A stretch of 64,000 nt of DNA from Pseudomonadota bacterium. GTDB taxonomy: Bacteria > Bdellovibrionota_G > JALEGL01 > DATDPG01. Within the stretch, counting starts at the first letter, position 1. The number at the start of each line of letters is the position of its first letter. The translations under genes were made by a program, and so were the position numbers. The stretch spans positions 6,943-70,942 of the forward strand of contig JAZDDX010000027.1 in the NCBI GenBank assembly GCA_043809315.1, read 5' to 3'. Below are positions 1 through 10,865 of the stretch, piece by piece. The notes under the pieces were generated by a model. The model saw nothing but the letters and a program-made list of their open reading frames with translations. It ran no database searches and was not told the origin of the DNA.

Positions 1-997
1 TGCCGGCACCCTGCAACCCCTTGCCTGCCTTGAGGTCGCGCTCACCCTGCAACCCGTACCGGGCGTCCTTGTTCATCTTGCTTTCGGCCGATTTTGGGAT
101 CGCGGAGCCGCCGGCGAGTAGCTCGCTGAAGGCGTTTCGTTTTCCGGCCTTCGTGAAGAAGTCGAGGACTCCAGTCTTTCCGAGATCTTTCTGGGTCATC
201 GCGCCGGACCCCGGCACACCACGCCCGCGACGCCCTTCCTTTCCGGGCGCCCGTTCCCCTTCCCCTTCCTTTCCGACTTTTCCACGGCTCACGCCGGCAG
301 GGGCCATGGCGCGCAGTGGGACGTACGGCTTGATCTCCTTCGGCTCGATCAGGATCTTCTGGAATTTCGGCGACAGAGTTTTGAGTGTCATTTCGGCCGT
401 CTGGATCGGAGCGAGAAGCATGACCAGAAGGAACAGGAAGTGGAGGGCGAGAGAGGCGGAGAGCCAGCGGATGAAATACGGGTCGGCGAGGTTTTTCCAG
501 ATCGCCACCGGCGGGACGCGCTCGGGATCGGGGATCTCGTCAAAGTAGATGAGGAGAGTGCCGTGTTCCAGGCAGCCCCGGGATCCCTTGGGAAGTTGGA
601 AGACCTTGAAGGGGCCCGAAGCGGTCGAACCGACGTCCGCGAGCCGCTGGAGCTTGTTCGCGATCTGCAGGACCCCCCCGAAATGCTTGTTGAGGTTCAG
701 GGTGACGGTGCCGTCCAGGTTGTACGCCACCAGCACGTGTCTCTCGGGGAGGTCCCTTGTCGGCACCTGGAAGGTGTTCTTCTGGGTCGGGCCGAAGGTG
801 ATCTGCGTGCCGGCGGAGAAGAAGCGATCGTCGACCACACGGCCGAACGCCTGGATCACGATCCGGAGAACCTTCCGGCGGAGGTCGCGAGACGGTTCGT
901 CCGCCTTCCGTGCGCGGTATCCGACGGAAAGAGTCCGGGGGTCGAAAAAGAGTTCCGAATTTGGATCCTGCGGAAGTTCGAGTCGCGCGTTCGGCAT
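1..997 (-). CDS. Single-pass membrane protein, 5' part only (C-terminus lies beyond the window). About 190-aa cytoplasmic N-domain, one TM helix (IRWLSASLALHFLFLLVMLLAPI), then a Lys/Gly-rich linker. TonB/GltG-like topology.
   Basis: Minus-strand frame with no stop from the ATG at 995-997 (AAGGAG 7 nt upstream) to the window edge. It is absent from the ORF track only because it has no stop. It follows the stop of the 1016..1654 shadow ORF in the same frame and starts 11 nt after the 1009..1293 ORF ends. The + strand ORFs 21..548, 440..1012 and 549..1124 are its antisense shadows. Confidence 0.55.
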   Translation of the reverse strand, partial: MPNARLELPQDPNSELFFDPRTLSVGYRARKADEPSRDLRRKVLRIVIQAFGRVVDDRFFSAGTQITFGPTQKNTFQVPTRDLPERHVLVAYNLDGTVTLNLNKHFGGVLQIANKLQRLADVGSTASGPFKVFQLPKGSRGCLEHGTLLIYFDEIPDPERVPPVAIWKNLADPYFIRWLSASLALHFLFLLVMLLAPIQTAEMTLKTLSPKFQKILIEPKEIKPYVPLRAMAPAGVSRGKVGKEGEGERAPGKEGRRGRGVPGSGAMTQKDLGKTGVLDFFTKAGKRNAFSELLAGGSAIPKSAESKMNKDARYGLQGERDLKAGKGLQGAG

Positions 998-1008
998 CGG
1001 TTTCTCCT

Positions 1009-1293
1009 TTAAAATTCATCCACCGAACGGACGATGTTCGGCAGGAAACTCTCGTCCAGGTCGAGAAGACGGCGGAAGCGGAATTCGGGCGGTTCCACGA
1101 TCGGCTGCACTTCCGGTTTCTTGAGCTTTCCCAGGATGTCGACCTCGTTGAAGTCGTACACCGTTTTTCCGGACCTCACCCGGCGGGGCTCGGTGGGGGA
1201 TCCCAGCTGCGGGTTCGGCTGGTTCTGAGCCAGAACGGTTCCCGCGAGCAGCAAGAAAACGAGAGACGGGACGGTTACGATCCTCCATCTCAT
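1009..1293 (-). CDS. Small secreted protein (94 aa) with an N-terminal signal peptide (VPSLVFLLLAGTVLAQN).
   Basis: The ORF start overlaps the stop of the 1369-aa TPR gene (translational coupling). It has a signal peptide and lies inside the operon. Confidence 0.5.
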   Translation of the reverse strand: MRWRIVTVPSLVFLLLAGTVLAQNQPNPQLGSPTEPRRVRSGKTVYDFNEVDILGKLKKPEVQPIVEPPEFRFRRLLDLDESFLPNIVRSVDEF

Positions 1294-4200
1294 TGGGATC
1301 CTCCCTTCGGCTGTTTCTCCTCCGCCGGAAGCTGGGGCGGGGGAGGGGCGGACGGTGTTGGGGCGGGACGGGGACGCTTCGGCATCGCCTGCAATTGTTT
1401 GATGTACATGAACACCTCGTGGTCGGGACGGATCTTCCCGCGCTCGACCGAGGCGAACTGACGGAAGTACTTGAGCGCGCTCTCGGCATCCTGCAACCGG
1501 TTCTGGTAGAGGAGCCCCATATTGAAGAGGGCGGCCGAATGGGTCGGGTCGGCATCCAGAATGGCCGCGAACGCCTGACGCGACTTCGCCACGTCGTTCG
1601 TCGCCTGATACGCCGTTCCGAGGTTCTCGATCGCCTGGAAATGAAGCGGATCAAAGTTCAAGACCTGTTGGTATCCGGCGATGGCCGCCGGATAGTTCGA
1701 GTACTTGAGGTACAGATTGGCGAGGTTGAGCCGGGGGTCGATCGCGTTCGGCGCCAGCTCGGAAGCTTTCTTGAACTCCGCGATCGCATTCTTCATCAGG
1801 TCCATCCCGATGTAAACGAGACCGAGGTTGTTGTACGTGTCGGCGGTCGCCGAGTTGATCTTCTTCCCTTTCTGAAGGGTCAGTTCCGCGAGATCGTACG
1901 CCTGGGTCTGATAGTAGATCAGGGCCAGATTGTTGATCGCCGAAATGCTCGTCTTGTCGACATTCAGAATTTCCCGGATCAGCGCGAGCGCCGATCCGTA
2001 GTCCTTCTTCCGCCGGTAGGCGATCGCGAGATCGTTCTTGAGCGCCAGGTTCGTTGGCTCCTTTGATAAGAGATCTCGGTAGATCGGGATGGCCCGGACG
2101 GCTTGTCCGGTCTCCGTAAGCGCGCGGGCAAGTTCCAAAAAGCCGACGTTCGTGCGCGATTGGACGAGAGAGGCGCTTTCAAACGAACTCGCCGCCTTAC
2201 CGAGGCGTCCCAACGTCCGGTAGGCGCGGCCGAGGGCCATGTACGCTCCGAAGTCCCTCGGGTCGGACTCGATCGCCAGGAGATTTTGGTCCATCTCACG
2301 GCGGAAGTCGGCCGGTGTGCGGCTCGAGGCTTGCCCCGCCGGGAGGGAGACGAACGGCTCACTGAGATGCATGGTGAGATCGACGTACCCCCGTCGCGGA
2401 GGATAGAGATCCGGTTTGAACTCGGTCAACGCCGCGTACGATTTAAGCGCCCACTCGTTGAAGACCTCCAGCTCGAACGCTTTCTTGATCGCCTTCTCGT
2501 AGGCCTCAACCGCTTTTTCCTCGATCGGGGCCGCCCGATTGGTGAGCTCTTGCTGATACATCTGCACCTCTTCGGGCGTGAGCTTCTTCGGGACCGGCGC
2601 GTTGAAGAGCGCCTGGCTGAACTCTTGGTAAATCACGCCGACGTGATGGAGGGCTGCCACCCCCATCTCCGGATCGCCGAAGTTGATGATGTCGAGGTAG
2701 CGGTCGCGCAGCTTCTTCAAGAGGAGCGCCTTCTGTTCGATCGCCCGAGTCAGGGCCGCCTGCGGCATTCGGAGACGGATCTCCCGGAAATCAGCCAACA
2801 TCGGTTTGGTCAGTTCGAGTGCAGCCTTCGCGGCATAGAGCCCAGCTCCCTTCACCTCGGGATCGGCCGCATACTGACGATGAACGTAGACGGCGCTCTG
2901 ATACGCTCGGGTCTCCCCCGCTTCGTCTTTCGTTTTTCCGAGCGCCTGTCCCAGCCGATAGTACGCTTCGATGACCCGTGCCCTCCGACTCGAATGCCGG
3001 CGCGGAAAATCCTTGAAGGCCGCGATGGCGTCGGTCCAGTGACGCTGTTTTTCATGGATGAGGGCGATCGAGAAGGCGATCTCCGCACTGTCTTTCGAGT
3101 TCGGATACCGTTTCAGGTGGGTCTCGTAACTCGCCAGGGCTCGCGGATACTCCCGAAGGTTCTCCTCGTACGTCCCCGCGTTGAAGAGCGCGTCCGCCGC
3201 GTATTTTCCCTTGGGGTCCTTCTCGGCGAGCAGTTCGTAATACTGGGCCGCATGGGCGTAATCGAGCTTGTCGTCGAAGTAGGTGGCCAGGGCCAGCGCC
3301 AGCTTGGAGACCATCTCGGAGTCCGGGTACTTGCGGAGGAACCGGTTCGACGTGCCCATCGCCTTTTCCGAGGCATCCGCGTTGATGTAATCGATGGCGG
3401 CGTTGAACAGCGCCTTGTCGGCGTACTTCGAATCGGGGTATTTTATCGCCAATTTTTCGAACATCTCGGCGGCCGCGACGTACTCTTTTTTATCCTCCGT
3501 CACCTTCGCCTTCTGGAAGATCGAACCCTGGATCAGCTCGAGCAGCTTCGCCCGGGTCTCGGCCGTCGCGTAGCTCTTGTCCGCGAGGAAGGTCTCTGCC
3601 CATTTTCCGAGGTTCTCCCAGTCCTTCCGGATGTTGTAGATGTCGAGGATCAGATCACGGGCCGTGTGGGAGGCCGGTGACTGCGGGTACTTTTTCACGA
3701 TGCCGAAGAATCCATCGCTCGCCCGCGAGAACTGATTGTAGTTATAAAGGAGCTGAGAACGCTGGAGCGCGATGTCGGGGACGCGAGGATCCTGGGGGAA
3801 CGAGCCGATGTAGGCCTCGTCAACTTCGATCAACCGCTGTGCGTAGACGGAGAGGAACAGCGGCTCGTAGTTGTCCTTTTGTTTGATCCCTTTGGTCTCG
3901 AGGTTCTTGTAATAAACCTTCTCGAGCTCGGTCAACGCGTCCATCTCACCGACGAGAGCTTCTTTGCGCCGTTTCCCGTTCTTGTCCGCCTTGGCGACAC
4001 GGTCGAACTCCGTGACCGCCTGGGCGTACATCTTGTTTTTGAAGAGCAGATCCGCATACAGGTAGCGGTTCTCGTAGGCGTTCTTGTGGTCGCCGAACCG
4101 ATCGAGGTATTTCCAGTAGTAGTTCAGCGCGGCACGTGTGTATCCCGCCGATTTCGCCGGATCGGTCTTCGCCGTCTGCTGCGAAAGCTCGTGATACTTC

Positions 4201-5399
4201 TTCGGGATGAACCGGGCGTAAACCTCCGATCGCTCGTAGGCGTACTCCCGCATCTCCGGATCGTTGGCCTGCCGGTACCAGATCGAGTTCTTGTCGTACA
4301 TGGAGATGAACTCCTCCATTTCCGACATCGCGTGCGTTAAGTCCTGGCTCTTGTCGTAGCAATCGACCAGCTTGGAATGGTATTTCGGCCGCTCCGCGCC
4401 GAACGGTTCGATCGCCATCAGCCGCCGGATGGTGGCGATCGCCTTGTCGTAGCGGGCCTGCTCGAAGTAGATGTTCGACAACTTCTGGAGGACCTTCTTC
4501 GCGTATTCCGGCTCGCCGATCGAAACGAAGTACTGCTGGGCTTCGTCGATCAGGCCGAGATCGGAATAAAAGATGACCAGATCCTTGAGAGCCTCATCCC
4601 GCAGCTCGAGTTCGCCACGGATCCCTTTAGAGCTCCGGACGACCTTCTGCATGACCTGGGTCGCCGGATTGATCTTCCCCTGGTTGTAGAAGCACCAGCT
4701 GAGCTTGTAGAGGGCGAAATTGTAGAGTTTGCTCGGTTCTTTGAGGACGATGTTGAAGGCGGCGATCGCCTCGTCGAAACGGCGGGCCATGAACTCGAGA
4801 TCGCCGATCTCCATATAGGAGTCGAGGCGAAATTTGCTCTTCGGGAACCTTGCGACCAGCTCCTTGAAGTACCCGAGGGCTTGGGAATCCCCGACCTCGG
4901 TGGCGTGGAACCCCGCCAGGAACATCACCTCGTCGAGCCGGTCGTAGGTCGAAGCGGTCTGAATGATCTGTTTGTACAGCGTGAAAGAAGCGGCGCCGGA
5001 GAACTGCGGCTCGACCGGCCTGACTTTCCGTTTTCCCTGGAACCACTCGTCGTACGCCTTGTTGTAAACTTCCATCTGCTGGAAATAGCGGGAACGGTTG
5101 TTCAGCCAGTACAACTCCGCGATCCGGAAGTACATGTCGGCCCGCCGATTGGGCTCGGTGGTCCTTTTCAAGAGCCGGGTCAGGATCGCGATCTCTTCCC
5201 GGATCTTCTGGGAGAGCGCTTGGTCGACCTGGTAGTCGGGAATCGAAAACGCCTCGAAGACCCCCGGTTTGAAGGAGCCGCGGCGGGGCTGCTCCTTCGG
5301 CGCGGCGGGGACTTTGGCCGGAGCCTCCGCTCCGCCGGCGGGGATCGCCAGGCTTAGCGTCAGGAGAAAACTCGTGAGCGCGATCCGCCTCGCGGTCAC
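1290..5399 (-). CDS. Very large secreted multi-TPR repeat protein (1369 aa), GltD/NfsD(AgmU)-like scaffold.
   Basis: The N-terminal signal peptide is MTARRIALTSFLLTLSLAIPAGGAEA. Tetratricopeptide-like repeats recur along the whole length (Y/F/A/L periodicity, many AxxxY/AxxxF motifs). It overlaps both neighbours by 4 nt. Confidence 0.85.
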   Translation of the reverse strand: MTARRIALTSFLLTLSLAIPAGGAEAPAKVPAAPKEQPRRGSFKPGVFEAFSIPDYQVDQALSQKIREEIAILTRLLKRTTEPNRRADMYFRIAELYWLNNRSRYFQQMEVYNKAYDEWFQGKRKVRPVEPQFSGAASFTLYKQIIQTASTYDRLDEVMFLAGFHATEVGDSQALGYFKELVARFPKSKFRLDSYMEIGDLEFMARRFDEAIAAFNIVLKEPSKLYNFALYKLSWCFYNQGKINPATQVMQKVVRSSKGIRGELELRDEALKDLVIFYSDLGLIDEAQQYFVSIGEPEYAKKVLQKLSNIYFEQARYDKAIATIRRLMAIEPFGAERPKYHSKLVDCYDKSQDLTHAMSEMEEFISMYDKNSIWYRQANDPEMREYAYERSEVYARFIPKKYHELSQQTAKTDPAKSAGYTRAALNYYWKYLDRFGDHKNAYENRYLYADLLFKNKMYAQAVTEFDRVAKADKNGKRRKEALVGEMDALTELEKVYYKNLETKGIKQKDNYEPLFLSVYAQRLIEVDEAYIGSFPQDPRVPDIALQRSQLLYNYNQFSRASDGFFGIVKKYPQSPASHTARDLILDIYNIRKDWENLGKWAETFLADKSYATAETRAKLLELIQGSIFQKAKVTEDKKEYVAAAEMFEKLAIKYPDSKYADKALFNAAIDYINADASEKAMGTSNRFLRKYPDSEMVSKLALALATYFDDKLDYAHAAQYYELLAEKDPKGKYAADALFNAGTYEENLREYPRALASYETHLKRYPNSKDSAEIAFSIALIHEKQRHWTDAIAAFKDFPRRHSSRRARVIEAYYRLGQALGKTKDEAGETRAYQSAVYVHRQYAADPEVKGAGLYAAKAALELTKPMLADFREIRLRMPQAALTRAIEQKALLLKKLRDRYLDIINFGDPEMGVAALHHVGVIYQEFSQALFNAPVPKKLTPEEVQMYQQELTNRAAPIEEKAVEAYEKAIKKAFELEVFNEWALKSYAALTEFKPDLYPPRRGYVDLTMHLSEPFVSLPAGQASSRTPADFRREMDQNLLAIESDPRDFGAYMALGRAYRTLGRLGKAASSFESASLVQSRTNVGFLELARALTETGQAVRAIPIYRDLLSKEPTNLALKNDLAIAYRRKKDYGSALALIREILNVDKTSISAINNLALIYYQTQAYDLAELTLQKGKKINSATADTYNNLGLVYIGMDLMKNAIAEFKKASELAPNAIDPRLNLANLYLKYSNYPAAIAGYQQVLNFDPLHFQAIENLGTAYQATNDVAKSRQAFAAILDADPTHSAALFNMGLLYQNRLQDAESALKYFRQFASVERGKIRPDHEVFMYIKQLQAMPKRPRPAPTPSAPPPPQLPAEEKQPKGGSQ

Positions 5400-7024
5400 T
5401 TCGCGGTCTCCCCGATCTCTTTACATCGACTCTTGAGGTTGTAGAGATACGAGCCGACCTCGTCCTTCCAGAACTCTCCCGAGTAGTCCCACCACATCAT
5501 CGTTTCTTTCAGACTGTCGGTGAACTCGGGCTTGATCAGCTCCGCGTCGGTCAGAACCGGTGGCGCCAGACGGAGCGAGCGCGTCTGGAGAATCTTCCGC
5601 TCGGCGCTGACGACCTCGTACCGGAGCAGGTCCTTGATATCGAGGAAGTCCTGGATCATCCGGCGGGTCTTCAAAAGCTTCTGCCCCGCCAGGTAGCTCG
5701 CTTTGAGAACGAGGTCACCGGAACGTTGCTGGAGAAGCTTCGACAGCAGATCGGCACGCGGGCGGTGCAGATCGGCAAGATTTTTTCGCTCCGAGGCCAG
5801 ACGCTCGATGTAGTGGTGAACGCCGAGGAAATCCCGCTCGGCCGCCGCGAGGTTGAAGAGGGAGCGGTACGCGTACGCCTCGCTCCCGTCCGGCTTGCGG
5901 ACCTTGCTGCTCAAGAGCGGGTAATACTCGCGCGGGGACTGTGCCTGGCGGGCGAAACGGTCGATGTCTCGGCCCAGGCCGGTGAACTGATCCTCGACCC
6001 CTTTGAGGGTGCCGACGGCGTCCTGGTATAGACAGAGCTCGAGGTAGATCGCCCCCGATAGAAGGTACGACTTCAAAAAATAGATCTGCTCGAAAAACGG
6101 ACTCTGCACCGAGTGGAGGACCGACAGCGACTCGTTGAACTTGTGCATTTTGAAGAGGGCCCAGCTCGCCTCGTAGAGGGCCGGGGGGTAGAACTCACCG
6201 TCCTCCTTGACCTTCTTGTAGTAGACGATCGAGAGCGGATAGTTCTTCATCTCGTAGAAAATCCGTCCCAGCGCGAGGTTCGCAAGCTGGCGGATTTTCT
6301 GGTTCTCGTAATACTCGACCGGCGACCTCGTGTCGGAGATCAACCGGAAGGCCGCAATCGCGCCGCGGAGGTTGTTCCGCTTCACCGCCATGGCTCCCAT
6401 CACGTACTCGGCCGCCAGAAAGAGACGGTTCCGCCGCGGGATCGAACCCATCCACTTATCGGCCGTGTCGTAATCCAGCTTTTCGTAGAGGTCCTTCGCG
6501 ATGAAATAGCGGAACTCCTCGCGAAGGGAGAGGGGGACCTTTTCCGGCGGGATGGTCGAAGCGAGATAAAGAATCAGCTCGTCGTCCTTGAGCTCCTGTG
6601 CGATCGAGATCGCCCTCCGCAACGACTCAAATGTGTGGGGTTGGACCGGCTCCTTTTCGACGATGTCGACGAAGTACAGAAGCGACCCGTACGCGACCTT
6701 CATCTCGTACAGGACGTACGCCAGATAATACTTGGCGAACGAGTATTCCGGATAATTGGCGAGCCGTTCGTTCGCGAGGATCCGGTCGAACGAGTTGAAC
6801 GCCTCCGACCACTTCCGGTCGGTGATATGTTTCCGCCCGGTATCCAACTCGTTCACGAGACCTAGATACAGTGGGTTTCCGCCGACCACCTGTTTCCGTT
6901 TGTCGAGAGTTCGCTGAATCCGTTCCTCCAGCTTCTGATCGAGGTCCTGGGAAAACGCCGGAGGAGCCGCGAACAACGCAGCCAAAGCGACCGATAGGGT
7001 GACGATCCGGTTGCGCTTAGTCAT
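5396..7024 (-). CDS. Secreted TPR-repeat protein (542 aa), GltC/GltE/NfsC-like.
   Basis: The signal peptide is LSVALAALFAAPPAFSQD. TPR-like repeats are present (YYLAYVLYEMK, ALGRIFYEMKNY, AIYLELCLYQDA). It overlaps the upstream and downstream genes. Confidence 0.8.
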   Translation of the reverse strand: MTKRNRIVTLSVALAALFAAPPAFSQDLDQKLEERIQRTLDKRKQVVGGNPLYLGLVNELDTGRKHITDRKWSEAFNSFDRILANERLANYPEYSFAKYYLAYVLYEMKVAYGSLLYFVDIVEKEPVQPHTFESLRRAISIAQELKDDELILYLASTIPPEKVPLSLREEFRYFIAKDLYEKLDYDTADKWMGSIPRRNRLFLAAEYVMGAMAVKRNNLRGAIAAFRLISDTRSPVEYYENQKIRQLANLALGRIFYEMKNYPLSIVYYKKVKEDGEFYPPALYEASWALFKMHKFNESLSVLHSVQSPFFEQIYFLKSYLLSGAIYLELCLYQDAVGTLKGVEDQFTGLGRDIDRFARQAQSPREYYPLLSSKVRKPDGSEAYAYRSLFNLAAAERDFLGVHHYIERLASERKNLADLHRPRADLLSKLLQQRSGDLVLKASYLAGQKLLKTRRMIQDFLDIKDLLRYEVVSAERKILQTRSLRLAPPVLTDAELIKPEFTDSLKETMMWWDYSGEFWKDEVGSYLYNLKSRCKEIGETAK

Positions 7025-7739
7025 AGGGATGCGGGGGGAGGAAGAAGGAGACCCCGAGCAGCATCATGCGGTTGTTGATGATGTGGTAATAAGGTGGTCC
7101 TTCGCGCACGGTGATGTTCCGGAGATCGAGTCGGATCGCGCACCAGTCGTTTAGGTAGACCTTCGTTCCGACCCCCACGTTGAAGCCGAAGTGTTTCTGT
7201 GTATTCATCTTGAAGAGGCCGCCACCGGCCACCATAAAGATGTCGAAGTGATAGATCTTCTTCGAGAAGAGGCTGAACTTCCCGTAAATCGGGGACCAGA
7301 CCAGGCTAGCGATCGCGATATGTTTCATCGGATCGGGGGCCGGGTTGAGCGTCACGGAGCACTTCCCGTTGGCGTTGGGTGTAGCCCCCGTCGGACAGTC
7401 GACGTTCTTCAGGTCGTTGATGATCGGTTTGTTCTGGTGAATCATGAGAGAGTACGACCCCTCGAATCCGAACGTCTCCCGGAAATGATAGGTGTATTTG
7501 AACCCCACCGACTCATACATCATGAACTGGTTGTCGGCGTTGATGCCGCCGTCGAGGGTGAATTCGTGCCGCCCCGTCTTTCGGAACATGCGGCGCTGAA
7601 CGACGTCGATTCCCTCTTTCCGGTAGTTCCCGATCTCACCCTCTTTCGCCGCGTCGGCTGCGTAAAGTGCCCCCGGGCCAAGGGGGCTCCCGACGAGGAA
7701 GAGAAGGAGACCGATCCAGGGGATTTTTCTCATCTTCAT
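7017..7739 (-). CDS. Outer-membrane beta-barrel domain protein.
   Basis: The signal peptide is MRKIPWIGLLLFLVGSPLGPGALYA, so the likely start is at about 7733-7739 (the ORF track extends to 7787). Alternating amphipathic beta-strands run to a C-terminal aromatic strand. It is the first gene of the TPR operon. Confidence 0.7.
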   Translation of the reverse strand: MKMRKIPWIGLLLFLVGSPLGPGALYAADAAKEGEIGNYRKEGIDVVQRRMFRKTGRHEFTLDGGINADNQFMMYESVGFKYTYHFRETFGFEGSYSLMIHQNKPIINDLKNVDCPTGATPNANGKCSVTLNPAPDPMKHIAIASLVWSPIYGKFSLFSKKIYHFDIFMVAGGGLFKMNTQKHFGFNVGVGTKVYLNDWCAIRLDLRNITVREGPPYYHIINNRMMLLGVSFFLPPHPYD

Positions 7740-7875
7740 CACTCTTTTCTGCTGGGGTTCAAGGGTCTTCGCAGGGCTCGTTCCCAAAAAACCATACCAG
7801 AAGGAATCCCCTAGTACAATCAGACACTTCGCTTGTTTTACTTGAGGCCTCCAACTTGAGTGCTATACCCGGGCG

Positions 7876-8868
7876 GTGTTGCGTACGAAAAAGGGGATCT
7901 CCCGGCATCACCATTCGATGGTGCGACACCTGGAAGCCGCACTCCGAGAGGATGCGGGATGGAAGCACGTTCAGCGTGTGCTCGTGGGGGTTTCGGGCGG
8001 CGTCGATTCTGCTGTGTTGCTCCATCTATTGTGCGCGCACCGAGAAAAAGGGGGGCCGGAGGTGGTCGCCGCGCACGTGCATCACGGTCTTCGGGGCGCC
8101 GAAGCGGATCGGGATGCGGAGATGGCGGAGAGAGTCGCGCGTGCGCACGGCTGCGACTTTCACGTTTCTCGTGTGGCCGGGAAGAAGCTCAAGACGAAGG
8201 CGGAGCATGCACTGCGGGCAGCTCGACTGGAGGCTTTGGAGCGAGTGGCGGTGTCTGTAGGCGCCGGCCGGATCGCGCTGGCCCACCACTTGGACGATCA
8301 GGCGGAGACCGTGCTGTTTCGTCTCCTCGGAGGGGCCGACCTGCGGGGTCTCGGCGGGATCCGCCCGTTCCGTCCGCCTCACTGGATCCGCCCGCTCTTG
8401 AATTTTTCCCGGGAGGAAATTGCGAAAGAGGCGAAGCTCTGTCGCCTGCCGTATGCCGTCGACTCGAGCAACCGGGAAACGCATTATCGTCGGAATTATC
8501 TCCGCCGGGTGGCGATTCCCATGTTGGAGAAAGAGTTCAATCCGCAACTTTCGCGCCATCTGGTCGCGCTGGCAGAGTCGATGCGGGAGACGAACGAGTT
8601 CCTGGATCGCCTTGCAGAGGAACTTCTCGATCGCGCGCGAATCGGCAAGGGGTACCGTTCCGATCTCTTGACGGAAGCCCCGGCGCCGGTGCGCCAGCGG
8701 GCGATTCAGATCGCGTTCAGCGAAAAAGCGGGGGAGGGCTCGGCCCTGCGTCGACCCCAGCTGGTAGCGATCGAGCGGCTCGTTTGTTCGACAGGTCGCC
8801 TTCGGACCTTTGCCCTGCCGCGGAATGTCCTCGCGGTCCGGGCGAAAAACCGGATCGAGTTCCGTTGA
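7876..8868 (+). CDS. tilS: tRNA(Ile)-lysidine synthetase.
   Basis: PP-loop SGGVDS motif (VLVGVSGGVDSAVLLHLL) and overall TilS architecture. It sits upstream of ftsH, as in many bacteria. Confidence 0.85.
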   Translation: MLRTKKGISRHHHSMVRHLEAALREDAGWKHVQRVLVGVSGGVDSAVLLHLLCAHREKGGPEVVAAHVHHGLRGAEADRDAEMAERVARAHGCDFHVSRVAGKKLKTKAEHALRAARLEALERVAVSVGAGRIALAHHLDDQAETVLFRLLGGADLRGLGGIRPFRPPHWIRPLLNFSREEIAKEAKLCRLPYAVDSSNRETHYRRNYLRRVAIPMLEKEFNPQLSRHLVALAESMRETNEFLDRLAEELLDRARIGKGYRSDLLTEAPAPVRQRAIQIAFSEKAGEGSALRRPQLVAIERLVCSTGRLRTFALPRNVLAVRAKNRIEFR

Positions 8869-8918
8869 ACGGGGCGGTGGGAGTGTGTTACCGTAACGCC
8901 CCAACGTAAGAGGTCGGA

Positions 8919-10865
8919 TTGAAAGGAAAAAGCGCGATACTTTGGATTCTTTTGGCCGTCATGGCGGTGGTCGTCTACCACCTGGCAAACCCGTTCGTGC
9001 GAGCAGTGCCGCGCGACCTTCCGTCCAGCGAGTTCCGCGACCAGGTCCGGCGCGGGTTGGTCGAGTCGGTCCGGATCCGCGGCGAGGCGATCGAAGGGGA
9101 CTACCTTACGAAGTTTCCGCCCGAAGCCACCGTCGATAAGGCGGTCTCCGACCTGCCCGGGAAAACGTTTGTCACACGGTGGCTCGGGACCGGGGACGAC
9201 CTGACGAGATTTCTCGAGGAGAACAAGGTTCGAAAGTTCGACGCGATCGCGGAGGAGCGCTCGCCGCTCTGGCAGCAGATCATCCCCGGATTGTCGTTCC
9301 TCTTGCTTGTACTCTTCCTGATCTTCATGTTCCGGCAGATGCAAGCCGGCGGCGGTAAGGCGCTCAGTTTCGGCAAATCCAAGGCCCGGCTTTTGAGTGA
9401 AAGCCCGAAAAAGGTCACGTTCCAGGATGTCGCGGGGATCGACGAGGCGAAAGAGGAGCTCGAGGAGATCATCGACTTCCTCAAGGACCCGAAAAAGTTC
9501 ACGAAGCTCGGCGGGCGGATTCCGAAAGGGGTTCTCCTGGTCGGCGCTCCGGGGACCGGAAAGACGCTCCTTGCGCGAGCGATCGCAGGGGAGGCGGGGG
9601 TTCCCTTCTTCACGATCTCGGGGTCCGATTTCGTCGAGATGTTTGTCGGGGTCGGGGCATCCCGCGTGCGCGATCTTTTCGAACAGGGGAAAAAACACGC
9701 TCCCTGCATCATCTTTATCGACGAAATCGACGCCGTGGGGAGGCACCGGGGAGCGGGCTTGGGCGGCGGGCACGACGAGCGGGAGCAGACATTGAATCAG
9801 TTGCTGGTCGAAATGGACGGATTCGAGTCGAACGAAGGGGTGATCCTGATCGCTGCGACGAACCGGCCGGACGTTCTCGATCCGGCTCTTCTCCGTCCGG
9901 GGCGTTTCGATCGTCACGTCGTGGTACCCAGGCCGGATCTCAAAGGGCGGATCGGGATCCTCGAGGTCCATACCCGGAAGGTTCCATTATCGGACGATGT
10001 GAACGTGGAAGTGTTGGGGCGGGGAACGGCCGGTTTCGCGGGGGCCGATCTCGAGAACATGGTGAACGAAGCGGCGTTGCTGGCTGCCCGGCAGGAAAAG
10101 AAGAGCGTTGCCATGATCGACTTCGAGCGTGCGAAAGACAAGATCATGCTCGGGAAAGAACGAAAGAGCCTTCTGATCTCCGACGAGGAAAAACGGATCA
10201 CCGCCTATCATGAATCGGGGCACACGGTCGTCGCGAAGAAGATCCCGGGGGCCGATCCGGTCCACAAGGTGACGATCATTCCCCGCGGTATGGCGCTGGG
10301 GCTGACCCACCAGATGCCGACCGAGGACAAGTACACGTTGAACCAGACCTCGGCCGAGACCACGATCGCGATCCTGATGGGGGGGCGAGTTGCGGAAGAG
10401 ATCGTGTTCGGGACGCGCACCAACGGCGCCGGAAACGACATCGAGAAGGCGACGGAACTGGCGCGGAAGATGGTCTGCGAGTGGGGGATGAGCGATGCCG
10501 TCGGGCCGCTCGCGTTCGGGCGGAAGGACGAGGAGATCTTCCTGGCGCGGGATTTCACGCGCCATGTGAATTACAGCGAGCAGACGTCGCGACTCATCGA
10601 CGAAGAAATCCGAAACATTGTGATGCGGAATTACAGTCGGACGCGTAAAATTCTGGAGGAGAGCCGGGTTTCCCTCGACCGCGTAGCCGAAGCCTTGCTG
10701 GAATACGAGGTTCTGGAAGCCGAGGATGTCGAAATCCTAATGGCGGGAGGCCCCCTCACGAAACCAAAACCGGCTCCTCGCTTGAGGAAACCGGGAGAAG
10801 CTTCGAAGGCGGGCGAGGAGAATAAACCGGAGCCCGGCTTGGTCCCCGAGCCGGCCGTCGGTTGA
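8919..10865 (+). CDS. ftsH: ATP-dependent zinc metalloprotease FtsH.
   Basis: N-terminal TM segment, AAA+ Walker A (GAPGTGKT) and Walker B (IIFIDEID), SRH, and the HESGH zinc-binding motif. Confidence 0.95.

What the first reader, a model, noticed from the sequence alone, without database searches (positions are those of the whole stretch)
1..997. Uncalled partial gene running off the window edge (minus strand)
A stop-free frame of more than 330 codons starts at ATG 995-997 with an AAGGAG SD. It encodes a protein with a clear TM helix and low-complexity K/G-rich linker. All three listed + strand ORFs in this region are its shadows. Its N-terminal ~100 aa contain an FHA-like segment (ERHVLVAYNLDGTVTLNLNKHFGG).
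Basis: seen in the sequence. Interest (0 to 1): 0.5.

Follow-up and report, generated by a model that had tools for sequence, protein, structure and literature searches.

The report
Truncated gltG gliding-transducer gene at edge
The open frame at the window edge is the first two thirds of an ordinary gene for a GltG-type, TonB-like membrane protein that, in gliding bacteria, passes force from a proton-driven motor to the outer envelope; its apparent truncation is only because the window ends.

Summary
Minus-strand bases 997..2 form a stop-free run of 332 codons. It starts at ATG 997-995 behind an AAGGAG Shine-Dalgarno site, has the codon-position GC profile of its neighbours, and contains one strong TM helix and a G/A/K/R-rich segment.

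Nineteen full-length relatives of about 481 aa exist; the nearest is 89% identical and collinear. They show that about 149 codons lie beyond the window, and those codons encode an AgmX/PglI (TonB-C-like) domain. All named relatives come from Bdellovibrionota MAGs, apart from one MAG labelled Pseudomonadota.

The gene is last in a translationally coupled glt operon in the window: an outer-membrane beta-barrel, a GltC-like gene, a GltD-GltE fusion, a GltF/CglF-like gene, then this gene. Relatives continue with a GltH/CglE-like barrel.

Verdict: a new member of a known family, of low interest. A minor aside is the GltD-GltE fusion next door.

The parts
1..997 (-). Partial CDS: codons 1-332 of a gene of about 481 codons for a GltG-type (AgmX/PglI family) TonB-like transducer. 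The C-terminal ~149 codons lie beyond base 1.
   Evidence: Open frame. Homologues P0001-P0020, E down to 1e-198. Collinear alignment. Full-length homologues hit NCBIfam GltG at 1e-38 to 1e-46.
1004..1009 (-). AAGGAG Shine-Dalgarno site, six bases upstream of ATG 997-995. It overlaps the TAA stop of the gltF-like gene, which indicates translational coupling.
   Evidence: Read directly from the sequence.
530..958 (-). Cytoplasmic, membrane-proximal degenerate FHA-fold domain (residues 14-156).
407..481 (-). Single transmembrane helix (residues about 173-197).
   Evidence: Hydropathy maximum 2.2 at residues 178-198. Helix 173-195 with pLDDT 85-92 in the model of P0001.
2..406 (-). Periplasmic G/A/K/R-rich segment (residues 198-332). 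It is predicted to be disordered when modelled alone but is strongly conserved, with motifs such as EGEGxRAPGxEGRRGKGVPG, TGVLDFF and RYGLPGE..GKGLQG.
   Evidence: Composition. pLDDT below 50 for residues 224-370. Column conservation 0.58-0.69, equal to or above the folded domain at 0.56. Invariant Gly and Arg columns.
1009..1293 (-). GltF/CglF-like small secreted protein (94 aa), the gene immediately upstream.
   Evidence: NCBIfam NF033764 CglF, E 8e-6, aligned over the full length but below cutoff. Same position in L001, L002 and L003.
1290..5399 (-). GltD-like TPR protein fused in frame to a GltE-like TPR protein (1369 aa).
   Evidence: Residues 1-1025 are 63% identical to L001 GltD-like. 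Residues 1025-1352 are 59% identical to L001 GltE-like residues 48-374. NCBIfam GltE hit 1e-22 on residues 1056-1336.
5396..7024 (-). GltC-like periplasmic TPR protein (542 aa).
   Evidence: NCBIfam NF033756 GltC, E 1.7e-50, below the equivalog cutoff.
7017..7787 (-). GltA/GltB-type outer-membrane beta-barrel (256 aa), first gene of the operon. It is divergent from tilS and ftsH.
   Evidence: TIGR04565 OMP_myx_plus, 107 bits against a cutoff of 60. tilS-like and ftsH genes at 7876-10865 on the + strand. Same synteny in L001 and L002.

Best explanation
Bases 997..1 on the minus strand are the 5' two thirds of a gltG-type gene.

**Domain order.** The full protein is about 481 aa, judged from a homologue that is 89% identical. 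It is a bitopic inner-membrane protein with four parts:
- a cytoplasmic, membrane-proximal FHA-fold domain that has lost the phosphothreonine-binding residues;
- one TM helix;
- a long, conserved Gly/Lys/Arg-rich periplasmic segment;
- a C-terminal TonB-C-like (AgmX/PglI) domain, which lies off the window.

**Proposed mechanism, by analogy with Myxococcus GltG and with TolA/TonB.** These steps are inferred, not shown here.
- The TM helix and the adjoining FHA-fold domain dock on a TolQ/ExbB-like proton-channel pentamer (AglR type) encoded elsewhere in the genome.
- The extended periplasmic segment crosses the peptidoglycan and binds the TPR scaffold, which here is the GltD-GltE fusion encoded two genes upstream.
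- The TonB-C-like head engages the GltD/GltF/GltC assembly beneath the outer-membrane barrels.
- Proton-motive force would thereby be turned into movement of an outer-envelope complex.

**Likely output.** In a Bdellovibrionota-type organism the most probable output is surface gliding.

**Shown versus inferred.** Shown here are the gene, its family, the domain folds and the operon context. Partner contacts, energy coupling and the gliding role are inferred.
For: **Gene and family**
- Homologues P0001-P0020 are 480-494 aa. Several are named 'AgmX/PglI C-terminal domain-containing protein' and come from Bdellovibrionota MAGs.
- Full-length homologues match NCBIfam NF033760 GltG at E 1e-38 to 1e-46. 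P0016 matches over residues 61-493 against model positions 219-649. P0031 matches over 34-480 against 199-649 (E 2e-65). The N-terminal domain therefore maps to GltG's central region.
- They match NF033768 (AgmX/PglI tail) above its cutoff.

**Folds**
- The N-terminal domain model (pLDDT 85) has an FHA fold.
- The full-length model shows a beta-sandwich, a TM helix at 173-195, a disordered stretch at 224-370 and an alpha/beta C-terminal domain. That C-terminal domain hits TonB, TolA, HasB and FusB C-terminal domains.

**Operon**
- The order is OMP, GltC, GltD/E, GltF, GltG, then GltH/CglE in relatives. It is conserved in L001, L002 and L003 and collinear with M. xanthus gltD-E-F-G-H (gene order from PMC3169522).

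**Literature**
- AglR binds GltG in a two-hybrid assay (PMC3169522, PMC3858216).
- AlphaFold modelling places GltG's TM helix and pre-TM FHA domain on AglR5QS. It places residues 428-543 in a crevice of GltD and the TonB-like C-terminal domain on GltD/GltF (PMC11761067).
- Bdellovibrio glides and carries expanded glt clusters (PMC3169522).

**Conservation**
- The linker, although predicted disordered, is as conserved as the folded domain or more so. This fits a binding segment rather than a mere spacer.
Against: - The fragment in the window hits no Pfam or NCBIfam model on its own.
- Full-length relatives score 132-158 bits against the GltG equivalog cutoff of 650. By NCBI's criterion they are not equivalogs of M. 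xanthus GltG.
- They lack the canonical N-terminal FHA domain of M. xanthus GltG.
- The C-terminal domain is inferred from homologues and is not seen in the window.
- No TolQR/AglRQS-like motor gene was found among the window ORFs I scanned. That scan covered only ten ORFs.
- No gltI or gltJ homologue was seen.
- Which glt-like cluster, if any, drives gliding in Bdellovibrionota has not been established experimentally (PMC13104615).
- The paralogous Nfs system of Myxococcus shows that the same architecture can serve a non-motility function (PMC3858216).
Confidence: 0.8

Rival explanations
1. The protein family and envelope-spanning complex are as described, but the output is not gliding. The cluster could be an Nfs-like or ancestral 'core complex' machine. 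Such a machine would move or assemble a surface polymer, or serve another envelope function.
For: - M. xanthus NfsG is a GltG paralogue that also binds AglR and serves spore-coat assembly (PMC3858216).
- Luciano et al. found core gltC-D-E-G plus aglRQS sets in non-gliding bacteria (PMC3169522).
- The single-operon order A/B-C-D-E-F-G-H seen here resembles a compact cluster.
- No gltI, gltJ or adhesin gene is visible in the window.
Against: - GltF/CglF-like, GltH/CglE-like and GltA/B-type barrel genes are present. These are the 'group A' genes that Luciano et al. found only in Myxococcales and Bdellovibrionales (PMC3169522).
- In L001 three cadherin/beta-helix surface proteins follow the operon, which would suit adhesion.
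- From general knowledge, Bdellovibrionota are not known to make Myxococcus-type spores.
Confidence: 0.25
2. It is a conventional TonB or TolA that energises outer-membrane nutrient receptors or the Tol-Pal system.
For: - It has one N-terminal-side TM helix, a charged extended periplasmic linker and a TonB-C-like C-terminal fold in homologues.
- There are weak TIGR01352 and PF03544 hits.
Against: - TonB_C scores are mostly below cutoff, while the AgmX/PglI tail model scores 89-99 bits against a cutoff of 40.
- A ~170-aa cytoplasmic FHA-fold domain precedes the TM helix. From general knowledge, TonB and TolA have no such domain.
- The linker is Gly-rich, not rich in Pro-Glu/Pro-Lys.
- The neighbours are glt genes, not exbBD, tolQR or pal.
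Confidence: 0.04
3. The N-terminal domain is a working FHA module. It would read Ser/Thr-kinase phosphorylation and make the protein a phospho-regulated signalling receptor.
For: - The domain has an FHA fold.
- An STK-type kinase gene and a canonical FHA protein lie within 10 kb of the orthologue in L002.
Against: - PF00498 gives no hit at E <= 1.
- In 173 domain instances, the FHA Arg position is Arg in only 11. The FHA Ser position is Pro in 152 and Ser in 6. No instance combines Arg with Ser or Thr.
- This register rests on a weak alignment to RNF8 (E about 1). That alignment is anchored by the invariant Gly69 and Gly108.
Confidence: 0.05
4. The frame is a decaying pseudogene or a truncated remnant rather than an intact gene cut by the window edge.
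For: The 3' end cannot be seen. The neighbouring gltD and gltE have undergone an unusual fusion.
Against: - There are no stops or frameshifts over 332 codons.
- It is 89% identical and gap-free against P0001 through the last visible residue.
- It has a normal coding GC3 profile and an intact SD and start.
Confidence: 0.03

Closest known systems
Myxococcus xanthus GltG (PglI, MXAN_4867), transducer of the Agl-Glt gliding machinery
   Same: - Same order of modules from the membrane-proximal FHA-like domain onwards: FHA-fold domain, TM helix, long periplasmic segment that is disordered when modelled alone, then a TonB-C-like AgmX/PglI domain.
- Relatives align to the NCBIfam GltG model from position ~199-219 to 649.
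- Same operon position, after gltF and before gltH (PMC3169522).
   Different: - About 481 aa instead of 640 aa.
- It lacks the canonical N-terminal FHA domain (PF00498, residues 26-90 in MXAN_4867) that is predicted to bind GltI (PMC11761067). No gltI was seen.
- Scores fall far below the equivalog cutoff (132-158 against 650 bits).
- The linker is rich in Gly, Lys and Arg.
M. xanthus NfsG (GltG paralogue of the Agl-Nfs spore-coat machinery)
   Same: TonB-like partner of AglR, encoded in a compact A-to-H operon (PMC3858216). The compact operon layout resembles the one here.
   Different: Its function is tied to myxospore coat assembly.
M. xanthus GltJ (AgmX)
   Same: It shares the C-terminal AgmX/PglI TonB-like domain. 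The NF033761 model hits the C-termini of relatives at E 1e-4 to 1e-8.
   Different: GltJ has cytoplasmic ZnR and GYF domains (PMC11135422, PMC11761067), not an FHA-fold domain. The match is confined to the last ~90 residues.
TonB / TolA energy transducers
   Same: Bitopic, N-in topology; an extended periplasmic linker; a C-terminal alpha/beta domain of the TonB/TolA fold. The presumed partner is a 5:2 TolQR/ExbBD-type proton motor.
   Different: A large cytoplasmic FHA-fold domain is present. The gene context is glt rather than exbBD or tol-pal. TonB_C HMM scores are mostly sub-threshold.
Degenerate FHA-fold domains of envelope-spanning machines (T3SS YscD/PrgH/MxiG, T7SS EssC)
   Different: There is no detectable sequence relationship, and the downstream domains and machines differ. 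Their lack of phosphopeptide binding is recalled from the literature and was not tested here.

Membership tests
GltG / AgmX-PglI family (TonB-like gliding transducer) | Bitopic inner-membrane protein with a single TM helix and no signal peptide (N-in, C-out). | tested here: met
   One hydrophobic peak at residues 178-198. AlphaFold helix at 173-195. Orientation is inferred from the TonB-C-like C-terminus, not measured.
GltG / AgmX-PglI family (TonB-like gliding transducer) | Membrane-proximal cytoplasmic FHA-like domain just before the TM helix (M. xanthus GltG residues 190-329). | tested here: met
GltG / AgmX-PglI family (TonB-like gliding transducer) | Canonical N-terminal FHA domain (PF00498) as in M. 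xanthus GltG residues 1-114. | tested here: not met
   The protein begins ~13 residues before the membrane-proximal domain. There is no PF00498 hit. The commonest architecture in the family is ~474 aa with the domain starting near residue 5, so this feature appears specific to the Myxococcus-type long form.
GltG / AgmX-PglI family (TonB-like gliding transducer) | C-terminal AgmX/PglI (TonB-C-like) domain, NF033768. | not testable with these tools
   This region lies beyond base 1 of the window. It is present above cutoff in all full-length homologues tested, including the 89%-identical P0001 (93 bits against 40). The fold was confirmed in the P0001 model. Attempts to fetch the flank failed.
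GltG / AgmX-PglI family (TonB-like gliding transducer) | Score above the NCBIfam equivalog cutoff for GltG (NF033760, 650 bits). | tested here: not met
   The window fragment gives no hit. Full-length relatives score 132-158 bits. They are homologues, but not equivalogs by NCBI's threshold.
GltG / AgmX-PglI family (TonB-like gliding transducer) | Encoded in a glt operon next to gltD, gltE, gltF and gltH homologues. | tested here: met
   for the window. for relatives, including the GltH/CglE-like gene directly downstream.
GltG / AgmX-PglI family (TonB-like gliding transducer) | Physical interaction with the AglR (TolQ-like) motor subunit. | not testable with these tools
   This is known for M. 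xanthus GltG and NfsG from two-hybrid assays (PMC3169522, PMC3858216). No motor gene was found among the ten window ORFs scanned.
FHA domain (PF00498, phosphothreonine reader) | Beta-sandwich fold of the FHA/SMAD-MH2 type. | tested here: met
FHA domain (PF00498, phosphothreonine reader) | Sequence match to the Pfam FHA model. | tested here: not met
   No PF00498 hit at E <= 1 for the window protein or five homologues. A PDB profile search gives only RNF8 FHA at E about 1.
FHA domain (PF00498, phosphothreonine reader) | Conserved phosphothreonine-contacting Arg (G-R motif) and Ser (S-x-x-H motif). | tested here: not met
   In the register, the position after invariant Gly69 is Pro in the window. 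Across 173 domains it is Gln, Glu, Ser or Ala in most, and Arg in 11. The Ser position is Pro84 in the window, and Pro in 152 of 173. No member has both Arg and Ser/Thr. The register rests on a weak alignment.
TonB (TIGR01352 / PF03544) | C-terminal domain scoring above the TonB_C cutoffs, and an exbBD neighbourhood. | tested here: not met
   TIGR01352 scores 16-24 bits (cutoff 27.1) in three of the five relatives, gives no hit for P0001, and passes only in P0016 at 34 bits. PF03544 is below cutoff in all. The neighbours are glt genes.

The most novel reading that the evidence does not exclude
The ~140-residue domain in this fragment may define an undescribed, Pfam-less family of degenerate FHA-fold domains. 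The profile search found 607 representative clusters. Gly69 and Gly108 are invariant, and Pro replaces the phosphate-binding Ser. In this reading the domain is the universal stator-docking module of 'short' (~470 aa) GltG proteins, and the short form would be the ancestral, minimal transducer. The linker, predicted disordered but highly conserved, would be a second obligate binding element for the GltD scaffold, which in this genome is fused to GltE.
Probability: 0.4. Interest if true: 0.35.

Novelty: new member of a known kind. Interest (0 to 1): 0.15.

Why it matters
On its own this matters little. It is an intact-looking gene clipped by the window boundary, and public annotation already names its relatives as AgmX/PglI-domain proteins.

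It has some modest value for other work. First, it adds a compact, complete-looking glt operon from an uncultured Bdellovibrionota-like lineage. In that phylum the gliding motor and force path are still called unidentified (PMC13104615). Second, the minimal GltG form here keeps only the membrane-proximal FHA-fold domain. That points to this domain, rather than the canonical FHA of Myxococcus GltG, as the conserved part of the motor-transducer interface. Third, the adjacent GltD-GltE fusion gives independent 'Rosetta-stone' support for the GltD-GltE contact predicted by AlphaFold modelling (PMC11761067).

Tried and rejected
**Searches that led nowhere**
- Pfam and NCBIfam scans of the 332-aa fragment alone gave no hit at E <= 1. 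Identification needed full-length homologues.
- I tried four times to obtain the true flank. These were search for related loci with the window protein in genome contigs and in metagenome contigs, plus a degenerate DNA pattern for ERDLKAGKGLQGAG in metagenome contigs. None found a close relative. The contig of the 89%-identical P0001 is indexed, but its DNA could not be served.
- A profile search through the word index did not reach beyond the close family. The exhaustive HMMER search did.
- The afdb50 fold library was unavailable, so I obtained no direct structural match to the M. xanthus GltG AlphaFold model.
- A Pfam scan of ten other window ORFs looking for TolQ/ExbB/ExbD-type motor genes found only housekeeping genes: tilS, ftsH, RNase E/G, psd and others. 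The scan was not exhaustive.

**Interpretations considered and rejected**
- A conventional TonB or TolA.
- A working phospho-reading FHA protein.
- A pseudogene.
- A real gene on the + strand: the three + strand ORFs have antisense-type GC profiles and no support.

Full report

Yes. The minus strand of window 997..1 translates to 332 codons without a stop. The other five frames of bases 1-997 carry 1 to 12 stops.

In this frame the nearest upstream stop is TGA at 1018-1016, and ATG 997-995 is the first start codon after it. An AAGGAG Shine-Dalgarno site sits at 1009-1004, six bases before the ATG, and overlaps the TAA stop of the upstream gene.

GC at codon positions 1/2/3 is 0.65/0.44/0.79. 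This is the signature of the three upstream genes (0.59-0.63 / 0.36-0.38 / 0.76-0.81).

There is one strong hydrophobic segment, with a Kyte-Doolittle mean of 2.2 over residues 178-198. Residues 226-332 are 21% Gly, 12% Ala, 11% Lys and 8% Arg. The gene is missing from the ORF table only because that tool omits ORFs that run off the source.

**2. What is it?**

A search of 5.8 billion proteins found 17 relatives, and a profile search raised this to 19. Almost all are 480-494 aa. The best, P0001, is 89% identical and collinear with the window protein through its last residue, with no gaps or frameshifts. About 149 codons therefore lie beyond base 1.

Sources name several relatives 'AgmX/PglI C-terminal domain-containing protein'. 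Six genomic loci come from MAGs: four are labelled Bdellovibrionota or Bdellovibrionales, one Pseudomonadota and one uncultured bacterium.

The fragment itself hits no Pfam or NCBIfam model. The full-length relatives do:
- NF033760 'adventurous gliding motility protein GltG' at E 1e-38 to 1e-46.
- NF033768 (AgmX/PglI tail) at 89-99 bits against a cutoff of 40.
- GltJ and TonB_C only weakly.

**3. Context**

The gene is the last visible member of a translationally coupled minus-strand operon, with 4-8-nt overlaps or an 11-nt gap between genes:
- 7017-7787: an OMP_myx_plus beta-barrel of GltA/B type.
- 5396-7024: GltC-like, E 1.7e-50.
- 1290-5399: a 1369-aa TPR protein.
- 1009-1293: a 94-aa CglF/GltF-like protein.

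The operon is divergent from tilS and ftsH.

Relatives L001, L002 and L003 share this synteny and show what follows: a 191-200-aa GltH/CglE-like barrel (NF033755, E 1.6e-17). The order D-E-F-G-H is that of the M. xanthus G1 cluster (PMC3169522).

**4. The FHA question**

I modelled residues 1-170 with a 16-sequence alignment. The result was pLDDT 85.4, pTM 0.81, and an all-beta domain spanning residues 14-156.

At the sequence level the picture differs. PF00498 is not hit. A PDB profile search finds only RNF8 FHA, at E about 1. That alignment is nevertheless in register: VGRG aligns with FGPT, ISRNH with LPERH, and LNGV with FGGV.

In that register the structural glycines are invariant but the phosphothreonine contacts are gone:
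- Gly69 is present in 171 of 173 domain instances and Gly108 in 169 of 173.
- The Arg position is Arg in only 11 of 173.
- The Ser position is Pro in 152 of 173.
- No member has both Arg and Ser/Thr.

I conclude it is a degenerate, probably phospho-independent FHA fold. The caveat is that the register depends on a weak alignment.

**5. Relation to Myxococcus GltG**

An exhaustive HMMER search with the domain profile found 607 representative clusters at E <= 1e-3. Among the listed hits, 119 proteins are 400-600 aa (median 474 aa) with the domain starting near residue 5.

Sampled hits align to the GltG model from position ~199-225 onward. P0031 residues 34-480 align to model positions 199-649 (E 2e-65). 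P0121 has the domain at residues 179-309 behind a longer N-terminal region.

[quoted passage not shown] AlphaFold modelling docks that domain, together with the TM helix, onto the cytoplasmic face of the AglR5QS motor (PMC11761067).

The canonical N-terminal FHA of M. xanthus GltG (PF00498, residues 26-90; PMC3169522) is predicted to bind GltI. It is absent here, and no gltI homologue was seen. That is consistent with the reported absence of GltI and GltJ from Bdellovibrio (PMC3169522).

**6. Whole-protein architecture by proxy**

I modelled P0001 with 21 sequences. The model shows:
- a beta-sandwich at residues 14-156;
- a helix at 173-195 with pLDDT 85-92;
- residues 224-370 with pLDDT below 50;
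- an alpha/beta domain at 371-480 with pLDDT 83-93.

Foldseek matches the C-terminal domain to the C-terminal domains of TonB, HasB, FusB and TolA. The best target-normalised TM-score is 0.72, to H. pylori TonB-CTD.

The 'disordered' segment is not a free spacer. Its column conservation is 0.58-0.69 inside the window and 0.80 just beyond it. That equals or exceeds the FHA-fold domain at 0.56. Many Gly and Arg columns are invariant. This fits the prediction that the equivalent GltG segment becomes ordered in a long crevice of GltD (PMC11761067).

**7. Mechanism**

Inference by homology: the protein is the TolA/TonB-like output arm of a 5:2 proton motor.
- The TM helix plus FHA-fold domain would bind the TolQ-like pentamer.
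- The conserved Gly/Lys/Arg-rich segment would cross the periplasm and clamp the GltD(-E) TPR scaffold.
- The TonB-C-like head would contact GltD/GltF beneath the GltC and beta-barrel outer-membrane module.
- Proton flux would thereby move the outer complex.

For M. xanthus the AglR-GltG and AglR-NfsG contacts are experimental, from two-hybrid assays (PMC3169522, PMC3858216). The rest is modelling (PMC11761067). In Bdellovibrionota the machine most likely drives gliding, but this is untested (PMC13104615). An Nfs-like, non-motility role for this cluster cannot be excluded.

**8. Rivals**

- **Conventional TonB or TolA.** Rejected because of the cytoplasmic domain, the gene context and the sub-threshold TonB_C scores.
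- **Working phospho-FHA sensor.** Rejected on the binding residues.
- **Pseudogene.** Rejected because of the intact, conserved, collinear frame.

The flank could not be retrieved, so the 3' end is inferred.

**9. Novelty and verdict**

This is a new member of a known family in a known type of operon. Relatives are already annotated in public databases. Interest is low, at 0.15.

Two small points are worth noting. The first is the short GltG form whose only cytoplasmic domain is a Pfam-less, degenerate FHA fold. The second is the in-frame GltD-GltE fusion next door.

Noticed in passing
window 1290-5399 (-): The GltD-like and GltE-like TPR proteins are fused into a single 1369-aa ORF. Residues 1-1025 are 63% identical to L001 GltD-like, and residues 1025-1352 are 59% identical to L001 GltE-like residues 48-374. 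In L001, L002 and L003 the two genes are separate (1018-1040 aa and 381-410 aa). L001 GltE starts with a lipoprotein signal (MRKLLSILILPFFLAC) that the fusion has lost. This is either a genuine Rosetta-stone fusion of two predicted partners or an assembly artefact.
   Followed up: partly
P0027, P0029, P0030 (representative-library hits, ~920-940 aa): These are long GltG-like proteins in which the profile matched three stretches. Two copies of the degenerate FHA-fold domain were confirmed at about residues 165-295 and 470-595. They also have several extra hydrophobic segments before the usual TM, linker and AgmX/PglI tail. This is a multi-domain variant of the transducer.
   Followed up: no
L001 12149-17416 (+): In the closest relative with a long contig, three paralogous proteins of 514-588 aa directly follow the gltG and gltH-like genes. 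They carry Cadherin and Beta_helix hits and are candidate surface adhesins for the machine. The equivalent region lies off this window.
   Followed up: no
L002 12317-13627 (-) and 19504-20733 (-); L003 12263-13570 (-): A canonical FHA protein (PF00498 plus Yop-YscD_cpl, 436 aa) is encoded convergently just after the gltH-like gene in L002. A Ser/Thr kinase gene lies ~8 kb away in L002. L003 has a 435-aa ORF, not scanned, in the same position. The canonical FHA function missing from the short GltG might be supplied in trans.
   Followed up: no
window 7017-10865: The glt operon starts divergently from tilS (7876-8868 +) and ftsH (8919-10865 +). This boundary is conserved in L001 and L002, so the cluster sits at a stable chromosomal position in this lineage.
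   Followed up: partly
window 7017-7787 (-): Only one OMP_myx_plus barrel (GltA/B type) precedes gltC here and in the relatives. From memory, M. xanthus uses the GltA and GltB pair. I did not search the window for a second copy.
   Followed up: no
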